Positions 34,017-61,345 of a stretch of DNA of 64,000 nucleotides are shown piece by piece. This DNA comes from Dictyostelium discoideum. Lineage: Eukaryota. The stretch spans positions 224,001 to 288,000 of the forward strand of contig CM000151.3 of NCBI GenBank assembly GCA_000004695.1, given 5' to 3'. Each line of letters starts with the position of its first letter. The stretch's first letter is position 1. The translations under genes and the position numbers were made by a program. The notes under the pieces were generated by a model. It did no database searches and was not told the origin of the DNA. It saw nothing but the letters and a program-made list of their open reading frames with translations.

Positions 34017-35749
34017 ATGTCAACAAGTAAAAAAATTAAAACAGATAATAATAAAATATTACAAGATGTGATTGATTATGAAATTTTAAAATCTTTAATA
34101 AATTATTTATTAATCAGCAAAAATAATAAAACAAATTATAATAATACTATTAATCAATATAAAATTAATAAATTTTATTTAAATAGAAATGAAATATTAA
34201 ATTATATATTAGTTTCAAAAAAGTGGTATAATTTTATATCATCAACAATATCAAATAATATTATTGATAATAAATCATTTGAACATTGGTTAAAAATTAA
34301 TTATAATAAAAATAAATCATTTATTGAAAATTACAATAACCAAAATCAATATGATAAAAATAATTTAATTTTTAATGACAAAGAAGATAATCAAAATAAA
34401 ATTAGTTTTAATAAAGAGTTTTCAATTATAAAAATCAAAGAATCAATAATCAATGATTATTTTAAATTCAATTTATTTTTAGATGATATTACAATTGATG
34501 ATTTTAAAGAAATTAAAAATAAATTTGAAAATAATCAATTACTTTATAATAGAATTGTAGTTAATGTTAAAACTGGTTATGAAGGGAATCAAGACGATAG
34601 TATTTTATTCGAAATACATGAATATATATCAAATGAAAATTCAGAAAACATATCAAATTTATTTAAAATATTAGAATTAAATTATAATTATTTGGAAATT
34701 GAGGGCTATAATCCAAGCTCTGAAGAAGATGATGATGAAAGTAATAAGAAATGTACTGAATTATATTTAAATAATTTATCAATTGCTGGTGTTGATAGAG
34801 ATGTAGGTGAAGATGAAGAAACAGTAAAGATATTCAAAATTTTCAAAGGTAAAAATTTAATTTATGATGGATCTGATGTTGCTTGTGATTGTCCAACACA
34901 TGTCGATTATTCAGCATTATTTGATCCAAATAATTCAGGTCAACAAGTTGAATCAATTAAAGTACAAAATAGATTAGATGGTGGTGAATATGTCGAAGCA
35001 CGTCATTTAATCAAAGTTAATCAATTTGAAAATTTACATTCAATTACAATACCAATTAATTCATTTCAAATATTATCAAACCTATCTGAAGAAATGGGAT
35101 TTAATAGTTTCTATAGTAATAGTACAGATTCAGGTAATTCAGAAAATATGAAATCCGAATTAAACCAAATGATTAATTCATTCATTACAAGTAAATCTTT
35201 AAAGAATTTAAATATATCATCCATAGAAAAAGAAGATTCAATTTATAGTGATGATTATGATGATGATGAAACTTTTGCTAATAATATTAATGAAACTATA
35301 GAATCATTTTCAAATTCATTTATACCATTATTTTCAGAATCAAATACATCAATTGAAAGAATTGAATTTGATTGTTGTGGTTTATTAAATATTAATACAT
35401 TTTCAAATTTATTAAAAAACAAATCAATTAAATATTTATATTTATATGATAATAGTGATTTCATTGTTTACTCTTCAAAACAAACTGGTCGTGGTGGTAA
35501 TGATTTACATAAAGAACCTATTTCAATTAATCAATATTTATTTGATAATATATTTTCATCGCCATTAACATCAATTAGACATTATAAAATTAATATCAAA
35601 GAATCAAATCAATTCAAATTAATATTTAATTTAATATTAAATAATATTTTTAAATTACAATTATATTCATTAATATTTGAATTAAATGAAAATGAGTTAG
35701 TTGGTGAATTTGTTAAAGAATTTAAAAATTTAATAAATAATATTTCAAT

Positions 35750-35786
<37 letters not shown>

Positions 35787-35915
35787 AAAGAATCAAATAT
35801 AAATTTAAAAGAAATTAAAATTAAAATCGGAGATGATGAATATATTCCTGAATTAAATAATATTAATAATCCATATTTCACAACAGTAATAAAGAAATTA
35901 CCAAAAAAAAATTAA
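34017..35915 (+). CDS. member A (632 aa) of a tandemly arrayed Dictyostelium-specific family. N-terminal F-box-like motif (DYEILKSLINYLL ... NEILNYILVSKKWYNFIS), acidic linker and a conserved C-terminal domain.
   Basis: Intact intronless ORF. Family-conserved blocks: ETVKIFKIFKGKNLIY, YSALFDPNNSGQQVESIKV, VEARHLIKVNQFENLHSITIPINSFQILSNLSEEMGF, IERIEFDCCGLLNINTFSNLL, PLTSIRHYKI, NPYFTTVIKKLPK. Confidence 0.7.
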
Positions 35916-36279
35916 ATAAATAATATTGGTTAATGAAAATTAATTATTATAAATAGTTTTAATAAAATTTTATTATTATTATTGGTTTTTATTGGTATTA
36001 TTATTTTTTTTTAATTTTTTAATTATTAACCATTTAGATATTAATAAAAAAAAAAAAAAATTTAAGCCCCAATTTAATTGAAAAAAAAAAATATATTTTT
36101 AAAAATATCTTTTTTTTTAGATATTAATAAAAAAAAAAAATAAAAAAATAAAAAAAAAAAAGTTTTTTTGGATAATTTTGAGAGAAAAAAAAAAAGTGAA
36201 GCTTTCATTTTTTTTTTTTTTTTTTTTTTGCTTAAAATTCATCATTCTAAAACACACTTTATTATTTAAACAAATAATA

Positions 36280-38361
36280 ATGCCAAAAAATAAAAAAATA
36301 AAAACAGATAAAAATAATAAAATATTTCAAGATGTTATTGAATTTGAAATTTTAAGATCAATAATCAATTATTTATTAATCAGCAAAAAAAAAAAAAAAA
36401 ATAATAATTATAATACTAGTAGTCAATATAAAATTAATAAATTTTATTTAAATAGAAATGAAATATTAAATTATATATTAGTTTCAAAAAAGTGGTATAA
36501 TTTTATATCATTAACAATATCAAATAATATTATTAATAATAAATTATTTGAATATTGGTTAAAAATTAATTATTACAATAAATCATTTATTGAAAATTAT
36601 AATAATCAAAATAAATATGATAAATATAATTTATTTTTCAATAACATAGAAGATTGCAAAAATAAAATTAGTTTTAATAAAGAGTTTTCAATTATAAAAA
36701 TCAAAGAATCAATAATCAATGATTATTTTAAATTCAATTTATTTTCAAATCATATTACAATTGATGATTTTAAAGAAATTAAAAACAAATTTGAAAATAA
36801 TCAATTACTTTATAATAGAATTGTAGTTAATCTTGAAACTGATTATGGTAGCGATGATGATGATATTTTATTTACAATACATGAATATATATCAAATGAA
36901 AATTGGGAAATCATATCAAATTTATTTAAAATAATAGAATTAAATTTTCATTTTTGGTTAGGTGAAGGTTATCAACCAAAATCTGAGGAGGAGGAGGAGG
37001 AGGAAGAGGAGGAGGAGGAGGAAGATCATCATGATACTGATGAATGTTGTAGTCCAAAATCTGAGGAAGACGATCATGATGAACATTGTAGTCCAAAATC
37101 CAAAGAGGATGATGATCATGACGAAGGTTGTCACCCAAAATCTGAAGAGGAGGAGGAGGAGGAGGAGGATGATCTTGATGATGAAGGTAATAAGAAATGT
37201 ACTGAATTATATTTAAATAGTTTAACAGTTGTTGGGTATGATCAAGATGTAGTTGAAGATGAAGAAACAGTAAAGATATTCAAAATTTTCAAAGGTAAAA
37301 ATTTATTTTATGATGGATCTGGTGATTCAATTGATACGTATACACATGTCAATTATTCAGCATTATTTGATCCAGATAATTCAGGTCAACAAGTTGAATC
37401 AATTAATGTACAAATTGAAACTATTAATGAAGAATTCGTTGAAGCACGTCATTTAATCAAAGTTAATCAATTTGAAAATTTACATTCAATTACAATACCA
37501 ATTAGCTCTTTTCAAATATTATCAAGTTTAGCGAAAGAAATGGGATTTACTAGTTTCTATTATAATAGTAAATCAGAATTTGGTAATTCAAAAAATATGA
37601 AATCAGAATTAAATCAAATGATCAATTCATTCGTTACATGTAAATCTTTAAAGAATTTAAAAATAACATCGGTAAATTTAACAGATTATCATATCAACTA
37701 TGAAGGTTATTATGATGGAAATGGAGATCTTGAAATTTTTGCTAATAAAATAAATGAAACTATAGAATCATATTCAAATTCATTCCAACCATTATTTTCA
37801 GAATTAAATACATCAATTGAAAGAATTGAATTAGATTGTATGCGTTTATTAAATATCAATACATTTTCAAATTTATTAAATAATAAATCAATTAAATATT
37901 TATATTTGTATGGTGATAGTGATTTCATTGTTTACTCTTCAAAATCAAGTGGTTATGGTGGTGGTAGTGAATTACATGAAGAATCTATTTCAATTAATCA
38001 ATTTTTATTTGAAAATATATTTACATCACCATTAACATCAATTAGACATTATAAAATTTGTTTCAAATTATCAAATCAATTAAGATTAATATTTAATTTA
38101 ATTTTAAATAATATTTTCAAATTACAATTATATTCATTAATATTTGAATTCGATGAAAACAAATTAGTTGGCGAATTTGTTAAAGAATTTAAAAATTTAA
38201 TAAATAGTATTCCAACTCAAATACAACAAAAATCAAATAACATAAATTTAAAAGAAATTAAAATTAAAATTGAAGATGATGAATATATTCCTGAATTAAA
38301 TAATATTAATAATCCGTATTTCACAACAATAATAAAGAAAATAGAAAAAAAATATGATTAA
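36280..38361 (+). CDS. family member B (693 aa from ATG 36280), with an expanded acidic insert containing (GAG)n Glu runs and three CSPKSEEDDHDE-type repeats
   Basis: MPKNKKIKTDKNNKIFQDVIEFEILRSIINYLL... The same conserved blocks as member A. The track start 36178 is TTG. Confidence 0.7.
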   Translation: MPKNKKIKTDKNNKIFQDVIEFEILRSIINYLLISKKKKKNNNYNTSSQYKINKFYLNRNEILNYILVSKKWYNFISLTISNNIINNKLFEYWLKINYYNKSFIENYNNQNKYDKYNLFFNNIEDCKNKISFNKEFSIIKIKESIINDYFKFNLFSNHITIDDFKEIKNKFENNQLLYNRIVVNLETDYGSDDDDILFTIHEYISNENWEIISNLFKIIELNFHFWLGEGYQPKSEEEEEEEEEEEEEDHHDTDECCSPKSEEDDHDEHCSPKSKEDDDHDEGCHPKSEEEEEEEEDDLDDEGNKKCTELYLNSLTVVGYDQDVVEDEETVKIFKIFKGKNLFYDGSGDSIDTYTHVNYSALFDPDNSGQQVESINVQIETINEEFVEARHLIKVNQFENLHSITIPISSFQILSSLAKEMGFTSFYYNSKSEFGNSKNMKSELNQMINSFVTCKSLKNLKITSVNLTDYHINYEGYYDGNGDLEIFANKINETIESYSNSFQPLFSELNTSIERIELDCMRLLNINTFSNLLNNKSIKYLYLYGDSDFIVYSSKSSGYGGGSELHEESISINQFLFENIFTSPLTSIRHYKICFKLSNQLRLIFNLILNNIFKLQLYSLIFEFDENKLVGEFVKEFKNLINSIPTQIQQKSNNINLKEIKIKIEDDEYIPELNNINNPYFTTIIKKIEKKYD

Positions 38362-38857
38362 AAAAAAAATAAAAAATAAAAAAAAAATAAAAAAGTGAAA
38401 TAATTTTTTATTTTTATTTTTTTTTTTTAAATAAAGATGTGGTTTCTCAATATTGAGAAGTTTTTTATTTTTTTTTTGAAAATTCTTTTTTTTTTTTTCC
38501 ATTATGGGAGGTCAATTTTTTTTCCAATTTTTTTTATTTTTTTTTATTTTTTTTTTTTATTTTTTTTTTTTAAATCGAATTTTTTACTTTTTTTTTATTT
38601 TTTTCTTTATTTTTGGTAAACATAAAAAAAGAGATATCAAATAGAAAAAAAAAAAAGTTATAAAAAAAAGAGAAATTAATTGTAATCATTTATTAATTAA
38701 ACATAAAGTTATTTTTTTTTTTTTTTTTTTTTTTTTATTCCAATTAATCCCATTTTTATTTTTCATAATAATTTTTATTTCCTTTTTAAAGTCTCATAAA
38801 AAAAAAAATTTAGAATTTGTTGGTCACTCTTTATAATTTAAACAAAAAATAATAATA

Positions 38858-40050
38858 ATATCAACAAGTAAAAAAATAAAAACAGATAATAAAATATTTC
38901 AAGATCTGATTGATTTTGAAATTTTAAGATCCATAACCAATTATTTATTAACTAGCAAAAAAAAAATTAATAATAATAATAATATTAATAATATTAATAA
39001 TTTAAATAATAATAATATTATTAATCAATAAAATTAATAAATTTTATTTAAATAGAAATGAAATATTAAATTATATATTAGTTTCAAAAAAGTTGTATAA
39101 TTTTATATCATTAACAATATCAAATAATATTATTAATAATAAATCATTTGAACATTGGTTAAAAACTAATTATAATAATAATAAATCATTTATTGAAAAT
39201 TATAAAAATCAAAATCAATATGATAAAAATAAAATATTTTATAGCAAAGAAGATTATAATCAATATAAAATTAGTTTTAATAAAGAGTTTTCAACTATAA
39301 AAATCAAAGAATCAATAATCAATGATTATTTTAAATTCAATTTATTTTTAGATAAGCTTACAATTGGTGATATTATAGATATTAAAAATAAATTTGAAAA
39401 TAATCAATTGGTTTATAATAGAATTGTAGTTTATATTAAAACTGATGATGATTGGTTTCCATAATGTGATAATTTATTAAAATATTTAAAATACACGAAT
39501 ATGTATCAAATGGAAATTCAGAAATCATATGAAATTTATTTCAAATATTAGAATTAAATTATGGTTTTAGGTTGCGTAATGGCTATGATCCAAATCTGAA
39601 AGGGTATATTATGATGATAAAGGTAATAAGAAATCAACTGCTGAGTTATATTTTAATAATTTATCAATTGCTGGTAATAGATTTGCAGATGAAGATAACA
39701 AAACAGTCATGGTATTCAAAATATTCAAAGGTAAAAAATTATTTTATAATAAAACTTGTAGATATAGGTCAACACATGTCAATTGTTCATCATTATTTGG
39801 TCCAGATATTTCAGGTCAACAAGTTAAATCAATTGATTTATAAATTCGGTTTGGGAATTTGTTTATGAATTTAAAAATTTAATAAATAATATTTCAATTC
39901 AACAAAAACAACAACAAGAATCAAAACATAAATTTAAAAGAAATTAAAATTAAAATTGTAGTTGATAAATATGAAAAATTTCAAGAACTAAATTATTTTA
40001 AAAATCCATATTTCGCAATAGTAATAAAGAAATTACCAAAATGGTGGTAA
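38858..40050 (+). pseudogene. decayed family member C. Start codon ATG->ATA, internal 2-bp deletion, stops and large deletions; about 1.2 kb remains of about 1.9 kb.
   Basis: AATAATAATATCAACAAGTAAAAAAATAAAAACAGATAAT aligns with the AATAATAATGTCAACAAATAAAAAAAT... leaders of the intact copies. AATCAATAAAATTAATAAATTTTATTTAAATAGAAATGAAATATTAAATTATATATTAGTTTCAAAAAAG matches the family sequence but carries stops. Ends with GTAATAAAGAAATTACCAAAATGGTGGTAA. Confidence 0.6.
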
Positions 40051-40271: not shown

Positions 40272-41340
40272 TCAATTAGGTCCATTTGAACAAAGTCTCA
40301 TTGTTTCTTTAATAAAGGCAACGATATAAGGGGCATTTTGTTTATGATTGAAATTGACATATTCATCATCTTTGACAGCTTTTTTAATTTCTAGATATGC
40401 AATCTCTTGAGGTTCTGGACGATTACATAATTGTAAAATTACCCAATTCATTGTGATTGTAACTGTACCAATGGCTGGTCCAAAAATATCAAAACAAATT
40501 TGATTGATTTTCATTGTATCTTCTTTAGTGATTTCATTTAATCCATATTCAATTAACAAATCATCCATTAAATCTCTTGGTTTACTTGGATCAATTGACT
40601 TAAAATGATTTTCATTTTGACTACTAATTATTTGTCTAACGATATCGCAACCTTTTAATCTTCTAGTAAAGAACCAATCATAAAGTGGTGAGAAAATTTC
40701 AAAACAATCAAATGCAGTTAGTTTTGAAAGATTACCAAAAACATGTTCAACTGCATTACCAATAGTTCTTGACAAGCCACTTTCAACTGATAAATCTTGA
40801 TTAAACATATATTTGAATAACATTGAACAAGCATATCCTTGAATATGTCCTTTTGGATAAAACTTAAAATAATTATTTAATAAATTAATATTAATAATTT
40901 TAATTGTAATTATTATTTCTTTAAAAAAAAACCTATAATTTCATTATTATTCGAAATTTTTTCAAGTGAATCAATAAATTCAATTGCTTTTTCTTCCATT
41001 AATTTTTTAGATGTATGAACTCTTAATTATTAAGAAACACTTGATTTTGCTCTTTTCCATTCGTCATCAGATGAGCTCATTACACCTAATCCATTACTTG
41101 AAGCATATCTCCAACCTGGAACTAAAAGTGATGGTTTGTAAAGGAAATTTTCATCTTTTTGAAAATACTTTACATCATAATTTGAGACAAATAAAAATAA
41201 TCTTTCTCCAATCCATGCTCTTACAATTAATTCATGTTCTTGAATTTTGAATAATTCCCAAAATCTAATTTGAACAACATTTCCAAGAATAGGAAATGCA
41301 ATTGGTCCACTTGGAGATTTTGTATGAATTTTCTTATTTT
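40272..41340 (-). pseudogene. cytochrome P450 pseudogene. N-terminal and central part only, with an in-frame tandem stop TAATAA and no heme-binding (FxxGxRxCxG) region.
   Basis: Minus-strand translation gives SPSGPIAFPILGNVVQI (Pro-rich hinge), DEWKRAKSSVS-stop-stop-LRVHTSKKLMEEKAIEFIDSL, an 80-bp intron, then ...RDLMDDLLIEYG...ICFDIFGPAIGTVTIT (I-helix)...NRPEPQEIAYLEIKKAV...APYIVAFIKETMRLCSNGPN-stop. No downstream exon encodes the Cys-ligand loop before the next element at about 40050. Confidence 0.6.
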
Positions 41341-42129
41341 TTTTAACCTTTTTTTTTTTTGTAAAGAATTAATTAATTAATTTTAATTATTTCTAAAATA
41401 TATAAAATTAAATACATACAAAATCTTTTACCAAGAAAAGTATAATTAGAATAATAAAACATTAACTATTTCCATTTCTCTTAATAATATAGTATTACTT
41501 TTTTTTTTTTTTCTTAACAATTTTTTTTTTTTTTTTCAAATATACTTAACAACAATTTTTTTTAAATGGAAGGTTTATTTTTGTTTTTATCTTTTATTTA
41601 TTTTTTTATTTTTTTATTTTTTATGAATTAATCACCAACAATTAATTGGTGAGTCGATTAATTAAAAGATCAATTACAGGTAAAAAAAGATAATCTGAAA
41701 AATAAAAAAATTTTAAGTGGTTCAATCACAAATTTTATTACTAAAAAAAAAATTAAAAAAAGTTAAACCTTTTTTTGACTTTTTATAAAAAACAAAAATG
41801 ATATTATAAAAAAGGTGTGGGTAATTAATTTAAATTAAAAAAACTAAAAAAAAAAACAAAAAATAAAAAAAACAAAAATAAAAAAAAACAAAAAATAAAA
41901 AAAAACAAATTTTACCCCAAAATTAAGATCTTACAAGTGGTGCATTCCAATAAAATTTTTTTTTTTTTTTTTTTTTTGAATGATTATCTGTTGGCAATTG
42001 TCAAAATTTTTATTAAATGGTGGTTATTTAATTTAAAGGAAAAAATAAAATAAAATAGATAAAATAAAAAATGGTGGTTATTTAATTTAAAGGTAAAAAA
42101 AAATATTACTTAATTAAATATTTCGAAAG

Positions 42130-42160
<31 letters not shown>

Positions 42161-42224
42161 CTTAATTAAATAATTCATTTCAATAGTTACAAGTTTTATA
42201 ATAAATATATAATTGAAATCTAAA

Positions 42225-45200
42225 ATGATTGAAGGAAATTTTGAAAAAAACAATGATAACCAAGTTGCAATAATTGGTCTTGGGCTAAGATTACCAGGTA
42301 ACTCGGGATCTCCTTTAGAGTTTTGGAAAAACTTGCTTGGTGGTTTTGATGGAATTGTTGATTCTAATGAAAGGTAAAAAAAAAAAAAAAAATTTAAAAA
42401 ATAAATAAATAAAAAATTAGAATTATAAAAAAAAAAATAAAAATAAAAAAAAAAATAAAAATAAAAATAAAAAAAAGTGATGGCGACTCACCTCTAACAC
42501 ACCATATTTTTTTTTATTTTAATTTTTTTCTTTTTTTTCATTTTCATCACCGTTGTCTTCATTTTTTTTTTTTTTTTTTAAATTATTATTTTTATTTATT
42601 TAGATGGAGCGACACATTCCATAGTATGGGAGAAATCTCAAATAAGAATGCAGGATTAATTGACTTGGAAGAGAATTGGCATTCTTTTGAGCCATTGTTT
42701 TTTGGGATCAATCCAACCGATGCTAAACAAATTGATCCACAAATTAAATTAATGTTAAAGTTAACATGGGAAGCATTTGAAGATGCATCAATTGATCCTT
42801 TAAAACTCAGAGGAACAAATACTTCTGTTTTTGTTGGTGCCGCAAATACTGATTATTCTTTTATTAATTTCGAATAAAATGAAGCGCCAATCAATGTTTT
42901 TAATGGTACTCTCAGCGCATTTGCAAATAGAATATCATATTGTTTTGATTTACGTGGTACTTCATTAACAATTGACACTGCATGTTCATCATCATTAAAT
43001 GCAGTTCATTTAGGATATGAATCAATTGTTAATGGTAAATCAAATTACTCTGTAGTAGCTGGTTGTAATATATTATTAAGTAATTATTATTATAATATTA
43101 GTAGCACACACATATATATAAAATAGTTTTCATATTTCTAATATTTTATTTTTATTATTATTATTATTCTAAAAAAAGATCCATATATTACTAGATCATT
43201 TCATTCAATTAATATTACAGGTAAATCTGGTAGATGTAATTCATTTGATGAATCTGCTGATGGTTTTGTACGTTCAGAAGGTGTTGTTGTATTAATTTTA
43301 AAAAGATTATCACTTGCAATTCAAGATAACGATCAAATTTATTGTGTAATGAAAGGAAGTAGTTCAAATGTAGATGGTACTTTTAAGAAAACAAACTTTT
43401 TTGCACCTTCAAAAAGTGCACAATCAACTAATATCAAAAATGCATTTTTATCATCTAATGGTGCAGTGAAATATCAAGATATTGATTTCTTTGAATTACA
43501 TAGTACAGGTACACAAGTAGGTGATCCAATCGAAGTTGAAGCTGTTGCTGATATTTTTAAAAATGTTAAACAAGAACCATTATTAATTGGATCAGTTAAA
43601 TCAAATATTGGTCATCTTGAACCTGCATCAGGTGTAGCATCATTAGCAAAAGTTTGTTTAATGTTTAAACATCGTCAATTTGTAAAGAATATCCATTTCA
43701 ATAACCCAAATCCAAATATTAAATTCAAAGAATGGAATGTTAAAGTATGCACAGAAACAACAGCATTCCCAGATAGACAAGTATCAATGGCAATCAATAG
43801 TTTTGGTATAACTGGTTCAAATGCATGTGTTTTATTGTCTGAATATATTAAACCTTCAGAATTAAAAAATCAAACATCCATGAAATTAAATGAAAAATCA
43901 AAATTATTAATACCAATATCAACCAACTCAAAGAAGTCACTCGAACAATTCAAATCAAAACTACTTGAAGAAATTGATACATACTCTGAAAGCTTAACTT
44001 TTGAAGAGTTTGCAATGTTCCAAGTTTATTCAAAAACAACCAAATTATCACAAAGATCAGTTTTAATTGGTAATGATTGGAATGATTTAAAAATTAATAT
44101 AAATGAAATTATTTCAACAAAAAATAATAAATCTGGTAATATTATCAAATCAAATGATATTAATCCACCATTAGTATTTTCATTTTGTGGTCAAGGTCCT
44201 CAATATTCAAAAATGGGTTTAGATTTATATGAAAATGAACCAATATTTAAACAATATATGGATTTATTAGATTCAATACTATTTAAATATTATGGATATT
44301 CAATCATTCAAAAACTAAGATCAATTAATGATGATCCAATTCTAATTAATGAACCAATATTAGCTCAACCATCTATATTTATGATTCAAATATCATTATA
44401 TAAATTATATTTGCATTGGGGAATCACACCATCAATAATAGTTGGCCATAGTTTAGGAGAAGTAGCCAGTGCATTTTGTTCAGGTATGATTGATTTAGAA
44501 ACAGCATGCTTCGTGATATATAAAAGAGCAATCATTCAAAATAAAACCAATGGATCTGGAAGACTTTTAGCAATTGGTTTAAATCTTGAAGAATTCTATA
44601 ATCAATTTTCAAAGGAATATCCAGAAATTGAAATTTCATGTTTTAACTCACCATCATCAATCGTTGTATGTGGTAATGAACATGATATATTAAATATTTC
44701 AAAATCATTAAAAGAGAAACAAATATTCAACTCTTTATTAGGTACACCATCAGCATTTCATTCATCAAAACAAGATATAATCAAAGATGAAATTATAGAA
44801 TCAACCAATCATATCCGATCAAGACCACCTTCTATAACAACATTTTCAACAGTCACATCAAATAAATTCGATAAAAATACACCTTATAATTCAAATTATA
44901 TATTTGACAATTTAAGAAAGCCAGTATTATTTCAACAAACCATTGAAAACATATTCAAACATATTGAATCAAATGATTTAGGTAATTCAGTAATATTTTT
45001 AGAATTGTCACCTCATCCAACTTTAAACCATTATGTTAAAGAAATGATTCCAAAGAATTCAAATTACTTTTTAAACAAAGATTCAATAAGTGTATTATCA
45101 TCAATAAATAAGAAAAAAGAAGATATCAACGAAATTCAATCAACAATTTCACAACTTTATTGTTTTGGTTACAATGTCGATTTTAGTGCCCAATTTAAAT

Positions 45201-48200
45201 CGGAAATAACATCAAATTCATTCAAGAAATGCTCATACATAATACCACATTATCAATGGGATGAATCATTATTTTGGAAAGAAGGTATTTCATCAATAAA
45301 TAATAGAAAGAATGGAGTATCAATAAATCAACTTGGTAATAAAAATGAATCATCACCACATATATCATATACATCATATATCGATATTAAAGAAGAACCA
45401 TTTAGATTCTTAAAAGATCATCAATTTCGTGGTAAATCAATTTTCCCAGGAGTTGGTTATTTGGATATTATTTTAAAACTTTTCCCAAATCAAGATTTAA
45501 CCATACCACTTTTAGAATTTAAATCACAATTTATATTATCTGAAGGTGTAAAAAAAACTCTTACAACCAATCTCTACAAAAGTGCAAAGAATGAATATAG
45601 AGCAACATTTAATTTTAAAGATCAAACAAGTGGTAAGTGGGTTCAATCTGCAAATAGTAGAATTTTAATGAAAAGTTTAGATGTAACAGTTAAAAAAGTT
45701 GATATTCAATCAATACGTGATCAATGTAATTGGTCAACTTTGAAAAGAGATCAATTATATAACTCAATTAAAAACTATTCAAACATTTCAATATTAGAAT
45801 CATTTCAAAGAATTGAAGAAGCTTCATATGGTGATAATAGATGCCTGTGTAAAATTTCATTGGATCCAACTTCAAGCTATGATAATGAATCATTTTTAAA
45901 TATTTGCATTATTGATACATGTATACATCCATGTATTTTCTTTGATAACCCAGCTTCGTCTGTTTTTGAAAGAATTGAACATTTAAAAATTTATTCTTCA
46001 AGTGTTCCATTAACTGCAGAAGATAGAGTGAAGCAACAATACGTTTACTGTTATGTTGAACTTATTAAACAATTTAGTGATTTTATGTATTTAAAAACAA
46101 CTTGTTTCTTAAAAGATGGTACTGTTCTATTACATTCTCCATTGGTAACAATTGCATCTACACTATCAACAAAAAATGAAATTGATATTGAATGTCCAAA
46201 CAATCAATTATTTTCACAATGTCTTCAACCAAAAGATTCAATTTTACAATCACCATTAATATTGAAAGAATATTTTAATCAACAACTTCAACTTCAACAA
46301 TCAAATATCATTTCAATATCTACTCTATCATCATATCTTTTTTCCACATTAAAGAAAATATTAAATAACCTCACCATTGATGAATTTCAAAATGATTCAC
46401 TTGAACAGTTGATTGAAAAATATTCATATATCTTGGAAGAAGTTCAAGAAGTTGGTACTATCAGATCCAATTTAATCCTCTTAACAATCAACTTTTTATT
46501 AACACATCACAAACATATTGATCAAAACCAAGTTTCAAACTTTCTCTTGAATAACATTCCAAACGAATTATTAGTTGTTGATAATATTGTTTCAAATAAA
46601 GGTATTTCACATATTGGTATTTATCAACATCAATTAATTTTAGATATAATTTCAAAATCAATTATTCCAATCGTAAATGAAAAAATAGTTTTTAGAATTT
46701 TAGAAATTGGATGTGGTGTTGGTGAATTAACTAAACTAATCAATGATAAATTAGAATCAATTTTAAATGATAATCCATCATATAACATTGATATAGAATT
46801 TGTATTTTCAGATTATACCGATTCAAAAGTATTATTAATTAAAGAAAGATTGTTCAGTTCAAAAAAGAGTTGTTTCTTTAAAATTATTGATTTAAACAAA
46901 CAATTACAAGAACAATCATTTTCACCATCTTATTATGATTTAATTATTCTATCAAATACAACAAATCAAATTAAAGATATCAACACATCAATTTCATTTG
47001 TAAATGAAATTTTAACTCCAAACGGTCATTTATTAATTTTAGATACAAATTTCATTCAAACATCAATAGATGAAGATTATTATTTAGAAAACTACAAACA
47101 ATGGTTATCATTTAATTATTTAAATTCTGGTAGTGGTGCAATGAAACTAAATCAATGGAATCAATTATTAATAAATGATTTGAAATTTAATAATTTCATA
47201 TGTTCAACAGGTGAAATTGAACCATATTTGATTCAAGTTCAAAAATCAAATTTATCAAATTCAATTAATTCAGTTAGTAAAGAGCATACATCAGAATATG
47301 ATCAAATTATAATTTTTGGTACTTGTGATGAAATTAATATTGGATCTTCTTTCTATGGCTTGGTTCCAATAGCAATAAATTCAATTGATAAGTTTAAAGA
47401 ACATGTCAAATTACAACAATTAACTGATAAATCATTAATATTATTTATTGAATCATTAAATCTATTAACAGTTGATAATTTTAATCAAGTCTCAATGAAC
47501 TATATAGAAATCAATCAACATTTATTAAAAAATGAAATTTCAGGTTGTAAACATATTTTAATTTCAAGAAATGTAAACTTTGAAACTTCAAACTTATTTG
47601 GATCATCATTAATTGGTTCATTTAGATACTTTTGTGAATTCAATCAATTAAATATATATTCATTTGAATTTGAAGGTAATAATATCCTTAGTGGTGATAA
47701 ATTATTTAATATTATTCAAGAATTATCAAATTCAAGCAAACATTCACAAAATGAATTTTCAATCAGAAGTGATGGTAAAATTTATTATGAAAGAATTAAA
47801 TTAGAATCAAATTTAAAATTAAAATATAAATCAAAATCATATATTGAAAATAAAAATGAATTAGTTTCAAGATTAAAACCAGATTTAACATTTGCATTAG
47901 AAGCGGTATTACCATTGAATCCAAATTTTGTTGAAGTTAAAGTAATGGCAAGTGGTGTTAATTTTAAAGATTTCTTAGTTTATCGTCAATTAATTAATAT
48001 GGCAAATTCAAATGAAAATGGTGATCCTTCAAAACCACAATTTGGATATGAACTAAGTGGAATCGTTACCAAAGTCGGTAAGAATGTGACCAAATTCAAA
48101 GTTGGTGATCATGTAATGGGAGGTGCTTTTCATACATTTTCATCAAGTGTTCATGTAGATCAAGAAAGAATCGAATTAAAACCATCAAACATTTCTTGGT

Positions 48201-49016
48201 TTGAAGCATCACACTCTTTAGTTTATTTAACTTCATATTGTAGTTTATTCGAACTTGGTAGATTGGATTTATATGGTTCAAGTGAAACAGTTTTAATTCA
48301 TTCAGGAAGTGGTGGTATTGGTTTATCTTGTATCGATTTATTACAAGTATATGGATTTAAAGGATATTTATTTGTAACTGTAGGCTCTGAAGAAAAGAAA
48401 CAATTTTTAAAAGATCGTTATGGTGATTTCATCACAGAGATTTATTCAACTAAAAATACAGACTATGAATATTTAATTAAAGAGAAATTAATTGAATTAA
48501 AAGCACCATCTCAAAAATATGGTAGTTTTTCAATGATTTGTGTGGATTTAATTATAAATACTTTATCAGCAGATTATATGTCCTGAATTTTCAAATAATC
48601 ACAACTTTATCCATCGTTCGTCAAATTATAAAATTCATCAAGATACTTTAGGTAAAACAATATTAATAACAGGTCAAGCAGGTCTTTCAGATACAATCAT
48701 AAAATGGATAAGAGAAAAAAGATCAGATTCTATTGAATCAATAATAGTATTATCAAAATCACCAATTAAATTTGAATTAGAAAGAGCAATTGGTAGAATA
48801 AGATCAACAAATTTGAAAATCTATTTTAAACAAGTTGATATTTCAGATGAAAAACTTTTATTAAAATCAATTAATCAATTATTTGAAGAAAATAAAAATA
48901 TTAAACCAATTGAATCAATATTCCATAATGCATTTTCACCAGCAGAATGTGAACCATTAGAAATTGATATGAATCATTTAATTATTGGTTTGATTAAAAA
49001 AAAAAAAAATGAATGA
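42225..49016 (+). pseudogene. type I iterative highly reducing polyketide synthase (KS-AT-DH-cMT-ER-KR'), disrupted. Exons 42225-42373, 42604-43079 and 43179 onward. There is an in-frame TAA in KS at 42875-42877, a +1 frameshift between ER and KR at about 48556-48586, and truncation of KR at 49016.
   Basis: KS: [49 protein letters not shown]|R|WSDTF..., TIDTACSSSLNAVHLGYESI, GSVKSNIGHLEPASG. AT: GQGPQY...IVGHSLGEVASAFCSG. DH: HQFRGKSIFPGVGYLD. cMT: ILEIGCGVGELT. ER: VLIHSGSGGIGLSCIDLL. KR (in the +1 frame): ILITGQAGLSDTIIKWI...ends GLIKKKKNE-stop. No ACP follows. Splice sites: AG|GTAAAA, TTTAG|A, AA|GTAATT and AAAAAG|AT, phases consistent. Confidence 0.7.
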
Positions 49017-49116
49017 TCACATCCATTTTTTTTTTTTATATTTTATATTATTTTGTGCAAAATAAAAAAATAAAAAAATACACAAAAAACATATTCCCAA
49101 AAATTCAAATTTGCTG

Positions 49117-49306
49117 TTGTAGGGAATTTTCAATAAAATTTCACTGCCCAGCCAAAAAAAATTTAGGGTCAGTGATTTTTTTTTTTTCACTGTGAAATTA
49201 TCAAAATCACTGACCCTAAATTTTTTTTTTTTTCAAAAAACAAATAAAGTTTGTTATTTTTTTGTTTTTAATTATTAATTCCTATTTTAATGGTTAATTA
49301 TTATAA

Positions 49307-49338
<32 letters not shown>

Positions 49339-50712
49339 TTTTTTCTCATTTTTTTTTTCTTTTTTTTTTATTTTCATATTTTCATTTTAGGACAACAAAT
49401 TATCAAACATTAAAGAAATCTAAAACTTCAGAATATTTATCATTTGAAAATAATTTAATTTAAAAGAAATGTGAAGAGTTTATATTATTTGTTATTAATG
49501 AATTACCAAAATTAAAATACTTAATTGGGTATTAATTTCAAAAGATGAAAGAACAAAAGCAGCAAAATTAGATAGTGAAGGTTTCTTTCAAAACAATTCT
49601 AAGTGTTACTCCAGTTGTTATCAATAATAAAAAATAAATAATAATAATAATGTGATATCATCAGCTCAATCTTCACTATCATTAAGTAGTGCATCAACAC
49701 CAATTCCAACTCCATTAAATACTAGTAGTAATAATATTGGTGGTAATACTACTACAAGTGTATCAGTGGGATAATCCCCAACAATTAGGGGTATACCATC
49801 ATCACCAGATCAACAAGTTTTATTCAACGCAAACCATCAGTCGGTGCAATATGATGCCAAAATTAAATTCTTCTTTGAATTGATCAACTGATTTCCTTGG
49901 TAAAGAAAGAGAAAATCATCAATCATCTTCACCTTCATATTCATCATTATCAATATCATCATCATCACAACAGCAACATAATAGTAACAATCATCCAAAA
50001 TCGATTGATGAAGCACCTGAAGTATTATCACCATTTGATATTTTACAATCAAAAGTTAATGCAGAGAATTCTTTATCTTCATCACAAGATTTAAATCAAC
50101 ATAATGTAACAACGGCTAGTCAAATTTTACAAGAAATTAAACCAACTAAAGAATTAACTAAACAAGAAACTGAAGCATGCAATTCCAGAGGAACCAATTG
50201 AAGAATGTAATAAATCAACTACAACCACTGCAATTAAGATCATCTTCTTCATCTTCTTCATCTTCTACAACAACAACAAAAACAACAACAACATCACCAC
50301 CACCACAACAACAATTAGATTCGCCATTACCATTACCAGTTAATATTATTAATATGCCAATGGATGATGATGAACTTATTAGTGATGGTACAATAAGTGG
50401 TGCTTAAACTAATGATGGTATCAATTATTGTACCATCATTAGTTAAAGAATCATCAAGAGAATCATTATTGGCTACAACTATTGATAATTCAACATTATC
50501 AACTACACCATCACCATCTCCAAAATTACCAACTCTTGAAACTGCTAAACCATTGTTACATCATCATCTTCTTCTTCTTCAAACACCACTACTCAAACTA
50601 ATAAAGTTTCTGGTGGTTCTGCTAAAGAAATTTGGACTAAAATTGATCAAAATACTGCACCATCAACTCCATCTAAAATTTTACCAAAAAGATTACCTTC
50701 TCAATCAAATCT

Positions 50713-50774
<62 letters not shown>

Positions 50775-51342
50775 TAATTAATTAAATAAATAAACAAAAA
50801 GAATAAATAAATAAAAACAATAAATAAAAAAAAAGATAATAAAATAAAACTACAATCTTAATTGAAAAAATAAATAAATAAATAAATAAATAAAATAAAT
50901 AAATAAAATAAAACTAGTTTTAATAAATCTAAAACTTTGTAAATATGTTTTGAAAAAAAAAAAAAAATTTTTATTTTATTGTTTAACTAAATTTGGTTTA
51001 AAATTCAAATAAAGAACTATCTACTCTAAAAAAGAAACCCTTTTCAAATGATAATTGTTGAACACCATTTCTACAATCACTACCGTCATGAGTAGAAAAT
51101 TACCATTTAAACTAAATTGAATAAATCCACTCGATAACCTGTTGGAAATTAGCTACTTGATGTTTTTTAATTATTATTTATTGTTTATTTGTTTATTTGT
51201 CTATTTATTTATTCATTTATTTATTCATTTATTTATTCATTTATATATTCATTCACTAATAATATTACCTACTTTAAAATTGAAAAAATGAAAATGAAAA
51301 AAAAAAAAAAAAAATTGAAAAAAATTGAAAAAAAAAAAATTG

Positions 51343-51391
<49 letters not shown>

Positions 51392-51589
51392 TCCCCATAT
51401 TTTTAATATTAAATAAAATAATAATTAAACCCAAAAATAAAATTCCCATTTAATAAACTTTATTTGTTTTTTGAAAAAAAAAAAAAATTTAAGGGCAGTG
51501 ATTTTTTTTTTCACTGCACAACTGTAGTGAAATTAAATAATAAAATTCACTGCGCTGGGCAGTGAAATTTTATTGAAAATTCCCTACAA
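49117..51589. mobile_element. candidate non-autonomous DNA element or pair of MITE-like insertions. A 36-bp inverted repeat pair (49117-49152 and 51554-51589) flanks 2.4 kb of degenerate Ser/Thr-rich coding fragments.
   Basis: TTGTAGGGAATTTTCAATAAAATTTCACTGCCCAGC at 49117 is the exact reverse complement of GCTGGGCAGTGAAATTTTATTGAAAATTCCCTACAA at 51554. Adjacent 15-bp perfect hairpin arms TTTAGGGTCAGTGAT / ATCACTGACCCTAAA at 49162-49176 and 49206-49220. A related CACTGCCCTTAAA arm near 51490. No transposase ORF. Confidence 0.4.
50714..50772. repeat. (AAT)n microsatellite, about 19 units
   Basis: Read directly. Confidence 0.9.
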
Positions 51590-51866
51590 CAAAATAAATT
51601 TTTTGCTACCTCTAGTTTTTTTTAATCTATAATAAAAATATAAATATCCAAAATTATTAATTGAAATTTAATTGATTTTTAAATTGACAAAAGAAAAAAA
51701 AAACCGATATCTTGGACATCCAAGACAAAATTTTTTTTTTTTTTTAATTTTTTAATTTTTTTTCTTTTTTATTTTCTGCTTTTTTTTTTTTTTTTTTTCT
51801 TTTAAACAAAAAAACATAAATAAAAATAAAAAATAATAAATAACAAATAAATAATAAACAATTATA

Positions 51867-54800
51867 ATGAATAATGAATATAATGAAATATTATTTTGGA
51901 AAGTTTTTAAAAATAAATATTTATTAAATTATATATTAAAAAATAAATGTTGTCGTAAAAGTAAAAAATTTAAAAATATCACATCAGTAGATTCAATGTT
52001 AAAACATAAATTATATCAACTTTTGATATGTAAATTAAAAGCAGATGAAAATTTAAAATTTAAACATAGAAATTATAAAATCATGAATGAAATAAAAGAT
52101 ATAGAAGTATTCAAAGAGATATATTCATTATTACTTTTTAAAGGTTACCAAGGCTCTGAGGTTTTATTCGAAAAGATTTGGGGTATAAAATCAGTAGATT
52201 TATTTGATTTTCATATAAAATATCATCCAGAAGTATTTCAAACCTATATAGATCTTAAAATACACTCAATCTTCATATATAATCATCCAAAATTAATAAT
52301 AAAGGTTTTAAAATTTTTAGAAGAGTCCATCAATCATAATAAACCATTTACTTTTACCAAAATTGAAAGAAATTTTATCATTATGGAATATTTATATTAT
52401 AAACAACACCGATGCAATAGTGAAGAATTTAAAGAAAAGATGGAAATAATATCTAATATTCCAATATCTTCAACCTCAATACTTCAAAATTCATTTTCAA
52501 GTTCAGATAATAGTGTGGATGTAAATTGGTATCTAAAAAATAAAAAATTAATACCTTTTGGATTTAATAATATTCAAACATCATTTCATTGCTCTAAAGA
52601 AACTTTAAGATATTATTTCTCTCGTATTGGCGAGAAGAGAGATAAAGATATTCAACAATCTGTTTATTGCAAAAATAATTTAAGAATGTTTTCAAACTTT
52701 TGTTCTGACTTTGATTTTGCTATTTCCGACATCTATGAATGTATCTCTTCATCTATCAATTCAGTTTTATTATATTTTAAATTGTATTATTGCAACTATC
52801 ATGAATTTAGTAAATCAAAAAGTATACCAACATCGATTCAAACTCAAATTGATATAATAATTGGAAATAGTAAACATAGTGATTATAATGAATATCAATC
52901 AATTAAACAATTATTTCAACTATTTATTAATGAAACTAAATCTAATGTTTTATATGCATGGTATTTAAAAGAATATAATGAACCAATTGACACCATTCGA
53001 CTCTGTGAAAAAATTAAACTATTGTTAATATATTTTATGGCAAAAACCTATAGCACCAATATATTAAAGTTTCTATTGAAAAAACATGTAAAAATCAATA
53101 TAACAAAATCAGATTTGGACTATATTGGTGAAACATATCTCAACACTTTATTCAAAAGTAATCAAATAGATAATAACAATATTATTATGTTCTATAAAAT
53201 CTATTCCACACAAAAATCAATCATTATAGAAGATATTGAAGAAAAACCATTAGATGATGTAATATCAACAAAGGAACTTATCGATTTGCCTGAAAAACAA
53301 TTTCAATTAATTCTATTATCGAAATGGAAAGAAATTACATCAAATCTAATTGATAATGATATGATTGTTACAATTAAAGATAAAGAAACAATCGATTGGT
53401 TATCAGATATCGAAACAGGTGGTTGTAGTATTTTAAAAATAAGAAATGCTTTAAATTCAAAATTAAATCAAATGAAACTTGATTTTAGTACATCAGAATT
53501 ATTAGAATATGCAAGAATCAAATTTAAACGAGTAATTCCAATTTTAGATTCAAATAAACAGTTGTGTAATATTCACATTTTACGTACTCATGATGATATT
53601 GTATCATTAATCAATCGATTAAACCAATCAAACTTTAATGATAATGAAGATTTATTTAAATATTATATGATTCAAATTATTCAATTTGGTTCAAAAAATT
53701 CAATTAAATACCTAAGATTAATTTGTGATTCTATTGATGGGTTATTGTTGGACTATCTTGATTGGGGGGTTTTAGTAATGAGAATATTTAATTACGATTT
53801 GAGACTGTTTTATATTAACTCATATATATATGATATTTGGGATGTTTCGGCAGGTTATCATGAAAATGAAAAATTCAAACAATATAAAATACCAACTCAA
53901 CAAACATGTCAAATAATCAATCTCACTAAAATTAAAGTAAATTTCAATAACTTTCCAAATGTAACCTCTTATTTATTTCAAACATTTATTGAACTTTTAA
54001 ATTTTGAAGGTGTACAATTTATTCTTGATAATTTAAATGGTAAAGATTTAAAATTACATGAAAAAGCATTTAAAGATCGTTTTGATCATAGAATCTATAC
54101 ATGCAAATATTTATATAAAGATTTAATTGATATTATTCAGTTTTTAATTGATAGATTCAAAGATGGTCAATTATCATTATCAAATTTATCATTGATATTA
54201 AATTTCTTTTATTTAAAGTTAATTAGAGTCAATAATTTAACAATTGACCAAATTAAAACAGCTCATCAATTAATATCAAATTATATCAAAATAAAGAGTT
54301 CAAAATACACTTCATACTATTATTTAAAAACTTTTTCACCAATCATCGGATCATGTGTAGTCGTTATTGAAGTTCCCTGTGGTAGTTCTTTAAAAGAACC
54401 ATTCTTGAAATATTATATAAATACATCAGTATATACATTCGAATATATATTTACTGATAGAAATAATAAAGATTTAAATCAATTTATCGATTCAACAATC
54501 ATGGACATTGTAAAAGATAACTTTAATATCCAAGTCTCCAAGATGTTAGATTATAATAATCCAAGAGTTAATTTATTTTTACATTATTTCGAAATTGAAT
54601 TAAAATTTAGAAAGGAAAATAAAATCAAAAAACCATTTTTAAAATACCAACTATTGAAATTAATAATTAAAACATTTGATTTAGAATCATTTATTAAATT
54701 AGATAATTTATTACAACAATATGAACAAGAGGATGCTAATGATGATGGTGGACATGAAAATATAATAGGATCTATAGATAAATATAGATCCTATAGATAT

Positions 54801-55157: not shown

Positions 55158-55447
55158 TTTGTTTTTTTTTTTATTTTTATTTTTTTTTTTCTAAGTATGT
55201 TGTTATAAAAGTGTAGTGTTCATATTTATTTTAATTTCTCTTTTTTTTTTGGTGTACACCAAAAAAATAATATAAAGAAATAATAATGTTAACAAAAAAT
55301 AAAAATAAATATTTCAAGATATTATTTTTTTGAAATTTTAAAATCCATGTGTTTTTATTTTTTTTTGTTTTTTTATTTTTTTTTTTTTTAAGTTTTAAAT
55401 ATTTTCATTTTTTTAACTCATTAGTCAGCTCACTCTTACAAATAATT

Positions 55448-61189: not shown

Positions 61190-61297
61190 ATGTTAACAAA
61201 TAAACAAATAAAAACAGATAACAATAAAATATTTCAAGATATTATTGATTTTGAAATATTAAAATCAATAATCAATTATTTATTAATTAGCAAAAAT

Positions 61298-61345
<48 letters not shown>

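What the first reader, a model, noticed from the sequence alone, without database searches (positions are those of the whole stretch)
42225..49016. Highly reducing type I PKS (KS-AT-DH-cMT-ER-KR') carrying three independent disabling lesions
The gene is recognisable domain by domain and has a sensible 3-exon structure. However: (1) codon FINFE-TAA-NEAP in KS (42875-42877) is a nonsense codon where homologs have a sense codon; (2) the ER-to-KR junction needs a +1 frame change within about 30 bp (48556-48586); (3) KR stops after about 110 aa at 49016 with no ACP, immediately before an inverted-repeat element. Dictyostelids carry dozens of PKS genes and a number of pseudogenes. This one appears to be caught mid-decay, with the truncation point coinciding with a repeat element.
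Basis: partly seen in the sequence, partly recalled or inferred. Interest (0 to 1): 0.55.

Follow-up and report, generated by a model that had tools for sequence, protein, structure and literature searches.

The report
Decaying duplicate polyketide synthase gene
This is a dead extra copy of a Dictyostelium discoideum polyketide synthase gene, copied with half of its neighbouring P450 gene from chromosome 4 and later broken by one stop codon and two deletions; it is an ordinary pseudogene of a kind already reported for this genome.

Summary
The window is D. discoideum chromosome-2-type sequence, next to DDB_G0271218.

Positions 42225-48984 are a three-exon KS-AT-DH-cMT-ER-KR gene. It is about 96% identical in protein and 97% in DNA to the intact chromosome-4 genes pks22 and pks23.

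- **Lesion 1:** CAA>TAA at 42875-42877. Every homologue has Gln there.
- **Lesion 2:** a 332-bp deletion, not a one-base frameshift. The junction is at 48580/48581 with TG microhomology. It removes about 112 residues of the ER C-terminus and shifts the frame.
- **Lesion 3:** a 773-bp internal deletion, with its junction at 48984/48985. It removes half of KR, the ACP and the stop codon. The gene's own 3' flank survives at 48985-49114, so the repeat element did not cause the truncation.

The whole block 40281-49114 copies the divergent P450-PKS cassette. The P450 is cut at the block edge and carries two stop codons. The block's right edge abuts a 2.5-kb multi-copy inverted-repeat element (49115-51591).

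An independent assembly carries all three lesions. Another strain lacks the block at this locus. Substitutions unique to this PKS copy show purifying selection (ω about 0.23), so inactivation looks recent. The finding is ordinary and of low interest.

The parts
40281..41478 (-). Cytochrome P450 pseudogene, the divergent partner of the PKS. It is truncated at the left edge of the duplicated block after residue 364 of 483, so the heme-binding FGVGQRACPG motif is lost. It has two adjacent nonsense codons at 41032-41027 and gaps of 10 and 1 residues.
   Evidence: Pfam p450 hit on 40275-40823(-), profile positions 153-337 of 462. tblastn of the chromosome-4 unit-2 P450 against the window. Boundary alignments. 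98.2% nucleotide identity to unit 2.
41479..42224 (.). Shared intergenic (bidirectional promoter) region of the P450-PKS cassette, copied with the block.
   Evidence: 96.8% identical to the chromosome-4 unit-2 intergenic region and only 82% to unit 1. One contiguous blastn alignment covers 40281-48580.
42225..42373 (+). PKS exon 1 (start codon and N-terminus of KS).
   Evidence: Translation [21 protein letters not shown]..., 96% identical to P0001 residues 1-50.
42604..43079 (+). PKS exon 2 (KS, including the DTACSSS active-site cysteine). It contains lesion 1.
42875..42877 (+). Lesion 1: nonsense codon TAA, derived from CAA (Gln) by a C>T transition at codon 141.
   Evidence: Sequence. All homologues have Q here. 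The change is specific to the window lineage. It is present in the independent assembly L001.
43179..48984 (+). PKS exon 3 remnant: end of KS, AT, DH, cMT, N-terminal ER, then about 134 codons of the ER-KR linker and the first half of KR in a shifted frame.
   Evidence: One uninterrupted tblastn alignment to residues 50-2009 and a second to residues 2122-2254 of P0001.
48579..48582 (+). Lesion 2: junction of a 332-bp deletion with TG microhomology. It removes about 112 residues, essentially the whole ADH_zinc_N_2 part of ER and the start of the linker, and shifts the frame. TGA follows at 48584-48586.
   Evidence: Junction alignment against L004. tblastn coordinates. Domain positions in intact P0127: ADH_zinc_N_2 at 2000-2110.
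48984..48985 (+). Lesion 3: junction of a 773-bp deletion relative to chromosome-4 unit 2. It removes 728 bp of coding sequence including the stop codon, plus 45 bp of 3' flank. ATTA microhomology. The C-terminal half of KR (with the catalytic Tyr region) and the entire ACP are lost.
   Evidence: KR at 2149-2329 and ACP at 2412-2497 in intact P0127.
48985..49114 (+). Retained 3' flank of the PKS cassette. It corresponds to L009 17877-18139 with a further internal gap of about 130 bp. This is the right end of the duplicated block.
   Evidence: Collinear alignments to the sequence just downstream of the PKS stop codon in L009, L007, L006 and L003.
49115..51591 (.). Unclassified multi-copy element, 2,477 bp. 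It has perfect 38-nt terminal inverted repeats (49115-49152 and 51554-51591), imperfect arms of about 150 nt that each hold a strong hairpin, and a decayed Ser/Thr-rich open reading frame inside. It abuts the block on the left and native chromosome-2 DNA on the right.
   Evidence: inverted repeats. (second copy in L005, 97.6% identical interior, same ...CCCTACAACA terminus). (hairpin, z = -6.9). (interior: no intact ORF, no Pfam hit, no intact homologue). (strain FIR homology resumes at 51592).

Best explanation
Window 40281-49114 is a non-processed, dispersed duplicate of the divergent [P450(-) | HR-PKS(+)] cassette. That cassette sits on D. discoideum chromosome 4 as the pks22/pks23 tandem pair. 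In non-coding DNA the copy is closest to the second, pks22-like unit. It now lies on chromosome 2, upstream of DDB_G0271218.

**Shown**
- The copy carried the complete PKS gene: promoter, three exons, both introns and 3' flank.
- It carried only the 5' three-quarters of the P450, which was cut at the block edge.
- The PKS is now dead through three independent events:
  - a C>T nonsense mutation in KS;
  - a 332-bp microhomology-flanked deletion in ER that also shifts the frame;
  - a 773-bp microhomology-flanked deletion that removes half of KR, the ACP and the stop codon.
- The P450 fragment has additionally picked up two stop codons and small deletions.

**Inferred**
- The P450 was dead on arrival and has drifted neutrally.
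- The PKS, or the haplotype it was copied from, stayed under purifying selection for most of its separate history and was inactivated only recently.
- The block arrived through a break-repair or transposition event tied to the adjacent inverted-repeat element. The evidence is positional: the block ends exactly at the element's left terminus, and native chromosome-2 DNA resumes exactly at its right terminus.

No product is expected. A translated protein would stop after 140 residues.
For: - **Domains and gene structure:**
- **Closest relatives:** AX4 pks22 and pks23 and their FIT-strain orthologues, 95.7-96.0% protein identity.
- **Source cassette:** the chromosome-4 locus holds two tandem P450-PKS units. 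The window aligns contiguously to unit 2 from inside the P450 to the ER deletion. Identity to unit 2 is 98.2% in the P450 and 96.8% in the intergenic region.
- **Lesions:** TAA versus CAA. 332-bp deletion junction. 773-bp deletion with retained 3' flank.
- **Not an artefact:** all lesions are present in an independent assembly.
- **P450 lesions:**
- **Selection signal:**
  - PKS substitutions unique to the window are 24 synonymous and 22 non-synonymous. ω is about 0.23, against 0.14-0.36 for the intact copies.
  - Given the observed mutation spectrum, 12.1 synonymous changes are expected. P = 2.5e-5.
  - The P450 fragment shows 3 synonymous and 9 non-synonymous changes, and unit 2 shows none of its own.
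- **Strain variation:** strain FIR lacks the block and the element at the syntenic locus, and homology resumes at 51592. FIR and FIW carry a single chromosome-4 cassette.
- **Literature:** five PKS pseudogenes are reported for D. discoideum (PMC9618038).
Against: - I could not confirm that the PKS was ever functional at this site. The low ω could have been inherited from an unsampled functional donor haplotype, because alleles at this locus differ by 3-4% between strains. It could also have been imported by gene conversion. Ten of the 46 unique changes cluster in 42267-42977.
- The contrast in ω between the P450 and the PKS is not significant on its own (Fisher P = 0.11).
- No target-site duplication was found around the element or around block plus element. 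The left flank has no significant match to the FIR 'empty' locus. The role of the element therefore rests on position alone.
- FIR is rearranged at this site, so absence there could reflect loss rather than gain in the AX4 lineage.
- The FIT assembly is almost identical to the window and probably comes from the same laboratory lineage. It rules out sequencing error but gives no population information.
Confidence: 0.85

Rival explanations
1. Partial duplication, dead on arrival. The PKS never worked at this locus. The truncations are the duplication breakpoints, and the low ω was simply inherited from the functional donor haplotype.
For: The P450 really is cut at the left block edge. Haplotype diversity at the chromosome-4 locus is high enough to hide an unsampled donor. 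The copy has no intact P450 partner.
Against: The PKS 3' flank beyond the stop codon is present at 48985-49114. The KR/ACP loss is therefore a later internal deletion, not a breakpoint. The PKS copy was complete when it arrived. On the window lineage dS is similar for the P450 and the PKS (about 1.5-1.8%), but dN is 2.5-fold lower in the PKS.
Confidence: 0.25
2. One reading: insertion of the inverted-repeat element truncated the KR and removed the ACP.
For: The element lies close downstream, starting 99 bp after the stop at 49016. It is a genuine multi-copy element.
Against: The KR breakpoint (48984/48985) joins directly to the gene's own 3' flank through ATTA microhomology. A further 130 bp of cassette flank separate it from the element's terminus.
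Confidence: 0.03
3. Sequencing or assembly artefact: the gene is intact in the organism.
For: AT-rich homopolymer-rich DNA and 97%-identical paralogues invite errors of this kind.
Against: An independent assembly of a different accession reproduces the TAA and both deletion junctions exactly. None of the lesions lies in a homopolymer. The copy has 46 private substitutions and unique flanks, so it is not a collapsed paralogue.
Confidence: 0.02
4. The remnant has a residual function, for example a non-coding or regulatory transcript driven by the retained bidirectional promoter, or a source of sequence for gene conversion with pks22 and pks23.
For: The promoter region and splice sites are intact. 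The identity profiles of the three copies are mosaic.
Against: There is no direct evidence. A translated product would end at residue 140. Expression could not be tested with these tools.
Confidence: 0.05

Closest known systems
D. discoideum pks22 (DDB_G0284001, Q54QD3) and pks23 (DDB_G0283931, Q54QD1), chromosome 4
   Same: Same KS-AT-DH-cMT-ER-KR(-ACP) order. Same two intron positions. Same divergent P450 neighbour and shared promoter. About 96% protein and 97% DNA identity.
   Different: The window copy has a nonsense codon and lacks the ER C-terminus, half of KR and the ACP. It lies on a different chromosome, and its P450 partner is truncated.
The five PKS pseudogenes reported among the ~40-45 D. 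discoideum PKS genes (PMC9618038, which cites Zucko et al. 2007)
   Same: [quoted passage not shown]
   Different: I could not check whether this locus is one of the five, because the supplementary table is not held. The deletion structure, the chromosome-4 origin and the abutting repeat element come from this analysis, not from those papers.
P0005 locus in Dictyostelium cf. discoideum (ACTFIY_012485, L002)
   Same: It is a member of the same P450-PKS cassette family and is also decaying. It sits next to a P450 fragment.
   Different: Its lesions are independent: deletions matching window 45445-46048 and 47727-48417. Its C-terminal KR-ACP is present. It lies at the chromosome-4-type position next to Sec1 and adh_short.
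Gene fragments captured next to DNA transposons, such as filler DNA at transposon-induced breaks or Pack-MULE-like transduplication (general knowledge, not tested here)
   Same: One end of the copied host block coincides to the base with a transposon terminus.
   Different: The block lies outside the inverted repeats, not between them. No target-site duplication or transposase was found, so this is an analogy only.

Membership tests
Highly reducing iterative type I PKS (functional enzyme) | Uninterrupted KS with the Cys-His-His catalytic residues | tested here: not met
   The motifs DTACSSS, HSTGT and NIGHLE are present. An in-frame TAA at codon 141 precedes the active-site cysteine.
Highly reducing iterative type I PKS (functional enzyme) | AT (GHSxG), DH (HxxxGxxxxP) and cMT (SAM-binding) domains | tested here: met
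   Pfam Acyl_transf_1, PKS_DH_N and Methyltransf_12 hits. The motifs GHSLGE, HQFRGKSIFP and LEIGCGVGE appear in the translation.
Highly reducing iterative type I PKS (functional enzyme) | Complete ER (ADH_N plus nucleotide-binding/ADH_zinc_N_2) | tested here: not met
   ADH_N is present. ADH_zinc_N_2, at residues 2000-2110 in intact P0127, is removed by the 332-bp deletion.
Highly reducing iterative type I PKS (functional enzyme) | Complete KR domain | tested here: not met
   Only positions 2-91 of the 180-position KR profile remain. The rest is lost in the 773-bp deletion.
Highly reducing iterative type I PKS (functional enzyme) | ACP with the phosphopantetheine-attachment serine | tested here: not met
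   tblastn with intact P0001 finds no match to residues 2255-2496 anywhere in the window. ACP is at 2412-2497 in P0127.
Non-processed (duplicated) pseudogene | Introns and flanking non-coding DNA of the parent are retained. Disabling mutations are present relative to an intact parent. | tested here: met
   Both introns, the 5' intergenic region and the 3' flank align to chromosome-4 unit 2. Three lesions.
pks22/pks23 subfamily | Groups with pks22 and pks23 rather than with any other Dictyostelium PKS | tested here: met
   96% identity to pks22 and pks23, against 50% or less to any other D. discoideum PKS in the search.
Terminal-inverted-repeat DNA transposon (the element at 49115-51591) | Terminal inverted repeats | tested here: met
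   Perfect 38-nt inverted repeats, with none expected by chance.
Terminal-inverted-repeat DNA transposon (the element at 49115-51591) | Multiple dispersed copies sharing the same termini | tested here: met
   A second copy on another contig (L005) shares the interior at 97.6% identity and the ...CCCTACAACA terminus. A further diverged terminus is also present there.
Terminal-inverted-repeat DNA transposon (the element at 49115-51591) | Target-site duplication | tested here: not met
   The flanks read ...AAATTTGC|element|AAATAAAT..., with no direct repeat.
Terminal-inverted-repeat DNA transposon (the element at 49115-51591) | Transposase gene, or assignment to a named Dictyostelium family (DDT, Tdd, thug) | tested here: inconclusive
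   The interior is a decayed Ser/Thr-rich ORF with no Pfam hit and no intact homologue.

The most novel reading that the evidence does not exclude
The chromosome-2 copy was a working third member of the pks22/pks23 subfamily until very recently. It is polymorphic among D. discoideum isolates (intact, broken or absent), and it was created when a break at a DNA-transposon terminus was repaired by copying 10 kb from another chromosome. That would be a directly observed mechanism for the rapid, lineage-specific birth and death of Dictyostelium PKS genes.
Probability: 0.2. Interest if true: 0.45.

Novelty: already known. Interest (0 to 1): 0.22.

Why it matters
It matters little as a discovery. D. 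discoideum is already known to carry about 40 PKS genes and five PKS pseudogenes, and the family is known to turn over quickly between species.

The modest value is as a dated example of that turnover:
- A whole P450-PKS cassette was copied between chromosomes.
- The truncated partner gene drifted neutrally, while the complete PKS kept a purifying-selection signature.
- The PKS was then hit by three separate lesions, two of them microhomology-mediated deletions.

There are also practical lessons. At least one recent automated annotation fuses this pseudogene with transposon-internal sequence into a spurious 2,426-residue protein. Anyone designing CRISPR guides or mapping reads for pks22 or pks23 should know that a 97%-identical dead copy exists.

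Tried and rejected
- **Simple +1 frameshift at 48556-48586.** Rejected. Alignment to intact paralogues shows 112 residues (332 bp) missing.
- **Both truncated ends as breakpoints of one partial duplication.** I held this view. I rejected it for the PKS end once 48985-49114 proved to be the cassette's own 3' flank. I kept it for the P450 end.
- **Truncation caused by the repeat element.** Rejected.
- **Missing KR-C/ACP elsewhere in the window.** None found.
- **Identifying the element.**
  - The interior translation has only two short, partial homologues and no Pfam hit.
  - Literature searches for thug, DDT and Tdd gave no sequences to compare.
  - No target-site duplication was found.
- **'Empty site' in strain FIR.** The right flank matches cleanly from 51592. 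The left flank scores no better than shuffled sequence, so the site is rearranged.
- **Naming the pseudogene from the literature.** The supplementary table is not held, the Zucko 2007 paper is not held, and searches on DDB_G identifiers returned nothing.
- **Fetching AX4 loci for pks22, pks23 and DDB_G0271218.** They are not on record in the contig index. I used the near-identical FIT assembly instead.
- **Contrast in ω between the P450 and the PKS.** The direction is as predicted, but it is not significant (P = 0.11).
Full report
**1. Where the window comes from**

The window is very AT-rich. The 1,029-residue ORF at 51867-54956 matches AX4 protein DDB_G0271218 at 1021 of 1022 aligned residues. 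That protein lies on the 8.48-Mb AX4 chromosome 2.

The same ORF is encoded exactly in an independent D. discoideum assembly, GCA_054883475.1 (locus tag prefix ACTFIT, called FIT here). The FIT locus L001 is 99.7% identical to window 41836-64000.

**2. Checking the observation**

The gene structure holds:
- ATG at 42225.
- Exon 1 at 42225-42373.
- Intron 1 at 42374-42603.
- Exon 2 at 42604-43079.
- Intron 2 at 43080-43178.
- Exon 3 from 43179.

Pfam finds ketoacyl-synt N and C, KAsynt_C_assoc, Acyl_transf_1, PKS_DH_N, Methyltransf_12, ADH_N, and KR profile positions 2-91 of 180.

The TAA at 42875-42877 is real. All close homologues read FINFEQNEAP at this point. In a six-sequence alignment the change is a window-specific CAA>TAA.

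The ER frame stops at 48584-48586 and the KR frame stops at 49016. tblastn with an intact paralogue gives three hits only, to its residues 1-50, 50-2009 and 2122-2254. Nothing in the window matches residues 2255-2496.

Across 41836-52000 the FIT assembly differs from the window by one SNP (48654), by homopolymer-length differences and by a few low-complexity positions. All three lesions are therefore genuine.

**3. Closest relatives and source of the copy**

The best database cluster contains AX4 pks22 (Q54QD3) and pks23 (Q54QD1) together with their orthologues in other strains. The conceptual translation is 95.7-96.0% identical to these proteins. It is 94% identical to proteins from strains FIR and FIW and from D. 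cf. discoideum.

On FIT chromosome 4 the genes form two tandem units, each a minus-strand P450 followed by a plus-strand PKS. Strains FIR and FIW have a single unit in the same Sec1/adh_short ... NADAR context.

The window aligns contiguously to unit 2 from 40281, inside the P450, to 48580. Identity to unit 2 is 98.2% in the P450 part and 96.8% in the intergenic promoter region. Identity to unit 1 in the intergenic region is only 82%. Within the PKS the three D. discoideum copies are roughly equidistant at 97.1-97.7%. All are about 95% identical to the cf. discoideum copies.

Unit 2 corresponds to AX4 pks22 except for the first 148 codons.

**4. The three PKS lesions, re-described**

- **Lesion 1.** A C>T nonsense mutation at codon 141, upstream of the KS active-site cysteine.
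- **Lesion 2.** The parent reads ...GCAGATTATATG|GATGCAAAC...TTAATTGATTG|TCCTGAA. The window reads GCAGATTATATGTCCTGAA. This is a 332-bp deletion with TG microhomology. In the intact protein the lost stretch is essentially the whole ADH_zinc_N_2 match, residues 2000-2110. Because 332 is not a multiple of three, the frame shifts.
- **Lesion 3.** Homology to the coding sequence ends at 48984. The next 130 bp (48985-49114) are collinear with the DNA just downstream of the PKS stop codon in unit 2 (L009 from 17877), FIR, FIW and cf. discoideum.
  - Relative to unit 2, 773 bp are missing: 728 bp of coding sequence including the stop codon, plus 45 bp of flank.
  - The breakpoints share ATTA.
  - The loss covers KR profile positions beyond about 91, including the catalytic Tyr region, and the ACP at residues 2412-2497.
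  - This is a second internal deletion. It is neither a duplication breakpoint nor a transposon-induced truncation.

**5. The P450 partner**

Window 40275-40823 on the minus strand hits Pfam p450 at profile positions 153-337 of 462. Compared with the unit-2 P450 (483 residues), the copy stops at residue 364, exactly at the left edge of the block. It therefore lacks the heme-binding FGVGQRACPG motif. It also carries two adjacent nonsense codons (41032-41027) and gaps of 10 and 1 residues.

**6. The block and the repeat element**

The duplicated block is window 40281-49114, equivalent to L009 8005-18139.

At 49115 a 2,477-bp element begins:
- It has perfect 38-nt terminal inverted repeats.
- Its arms are about 150 nt long and imperfect. 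Each arm holds a strong hairpin (z = -6.9).
- Its interior is a frame-shifted Ser/Thr-rich ORF with no Pfam hit and no intact homologue.

The element is multi-copy. Locus L005 on another FIT contig has a copy whose interior is 97.6% identical. That copy ends at the same ...CCCTACAACA terminus. I found no target-site duplication, and I could not assign the element to a named family.

In strain FIR the syntenic locus (L008) matches the window up to 38388 and again from 51592, the base right after the element's right terminus. FIR has neither the block nor the element. It carries an inverted member of the local gene family instead.

So the block's right edge coincides with the element's left terminus, and native chromosome-2 DNA resumes at its right terminus. 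This positional evidence suggests the block arrived through an event at the element's end, either break repair that copied ectopic DNA or aberrant transposition. I did not demonstrate this. The FIR left flank gives no clean empty site.

**7. Timing**

I counted substitutions unique to one sequence while the other five agree (window, unit 1, unit 2, FIR, FIW, cf. discoideum).

- **PKS.** The window PKS has 24 synonymous and 22 non-synonymous unique changes, counting the stop. ω is about 0.23. The intact copies give 0.14-0.36. The binomial P against the neutral 20% synonymous expectation is 1.7e-6. After conditioning on the observed mutation spectrum, 12.1 synonymous changes are expected. P = 2.5e-5.
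- **P450.** The fragment shows 3 synonymous and 9 non-synonymous unique changes (ω about 0.7). Unit 2 shows none of its own.

This pattern fits a P450 that was dead on arrival. It also fits a PKS that stayed under constraint for most of its separate history and was disabled recently.

Three caveats apply:
- The low ω could have been inherited from an unsampled functional donor haplotype or imported by gene conversion.
- Ten of the 46 changes cluster in 42267-42977.
- The contrast between the P450 and the PKS is not significant on its own (P = 0.11).

**8. Comparison with what is known**

D. discoideum is reported to carry about 40 PKS genes plus five pseudogenes interrupted by stop codons (PMC9618038). 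The family is known for species-specific expansion (PMC3188802).

This locus is a non-processed pseudogene of the pks22/pks23 subfamily. It fails the membership test for a functional HR-PKS on four counts: KS continuity, ER, KR and ACP. I could not verify whether it is one of the five listed pseudogenes. That seems likely, because it is in the reference strain and no AX4 protein is annotated for it. The closest AX4 hits are pks22 and pks23 themselves.

**9. Verdict**

The finding is a real but ordinary pseudogene. Interest is low. Novelty: already known as a kind, and probably as a locus.

Noticed in passing
L001 385-8926 (equivalent to window about 42220-50774): The automated annotation of assembly GCA_054883475.1 calls one 2,426-residue gene here. 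It bridges the PKS lesions and runs on into the decayed ORF inside the inverted-repeat element. This is a chimeric gene model built on a pseudogene.
   Followed up: partly
P0121/P0129 (AX4 pks23/pks22) versus P0125/P0127 (FIT strain); L004 10001-17795 and 20315 onward: The first 148 codons, with 8 diagnostic residues, are swapped between the two tandem chromosome-4 copies when the AX4 reference is compared with the FIT assembly. The remaining residues are identical one-to-one. This is either a reciprocal exchange or a mis-join in one assembly of the 10-kb tandem repeat.
   Followed up: partly
L006 10001-17846 (strain FIW); L002 10001-16231 (D. cf. discoideum): Other members of this cassette family also look damaged. 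The single FIW chromosome-4 PKS is split into two gene models (1,259 and 1,183 residues), and the sequence goes out of frame near residue 1250. The cf. discoideum P0005 locus has two large deletions of its own and a P450 fragment.
   Followed up: partly
window 34017-35915, 36178-38361, 38824-40050 (decayed), 55349-57436, 58899-60827, 61190-63112: A cluster of paralogous genes of about 630-730 residues with no Pfam domain, 77-90% identical in DNA, surrounds the PKS block. Their number and orientation differ between strains. FIR has an inverted member where AX4 has the block. This region appears prone to rearrangement.
   Followed up: partly
window 20515-24096, 24684-28181, 28762-32367: Three tandem plus-strand ORFs of 1,193, 1,165 and 1,201 residues. 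The first has no Pfam hit.
   Followed up: no
window 49154-49228, and the mirrored arm near 51480-51550: Each arm of the inverted-repeat element contains a near-perfect hairpin with a stem of about 26 bp (DNA fold -34.5 kcal/mol, z = -6.9). Papers report miRNA-like small RNAs from the Dictyostelium thug-S repeat (PMC4894637). Whether this element is thug-S was not established.
   Followed up: partly
window 42016-42039 and 42070-42093: A 24-nt direct repeat, AATGGTGGTTATTTAATTTAAAGG, occurs twice in the P450-PKS intergenic promoter region. A second short repeat, ATTACTTAATTAAATA, follows.
   Followed up: no
window 49058, versus L009 17949 to about 18080: The retained 3' flank lacks a further stretch of about 130 bp that is present downstream of chromosome-4 unit 2. 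This is a third deletion in the copy and has no coding consequence.
   Followed up: partly
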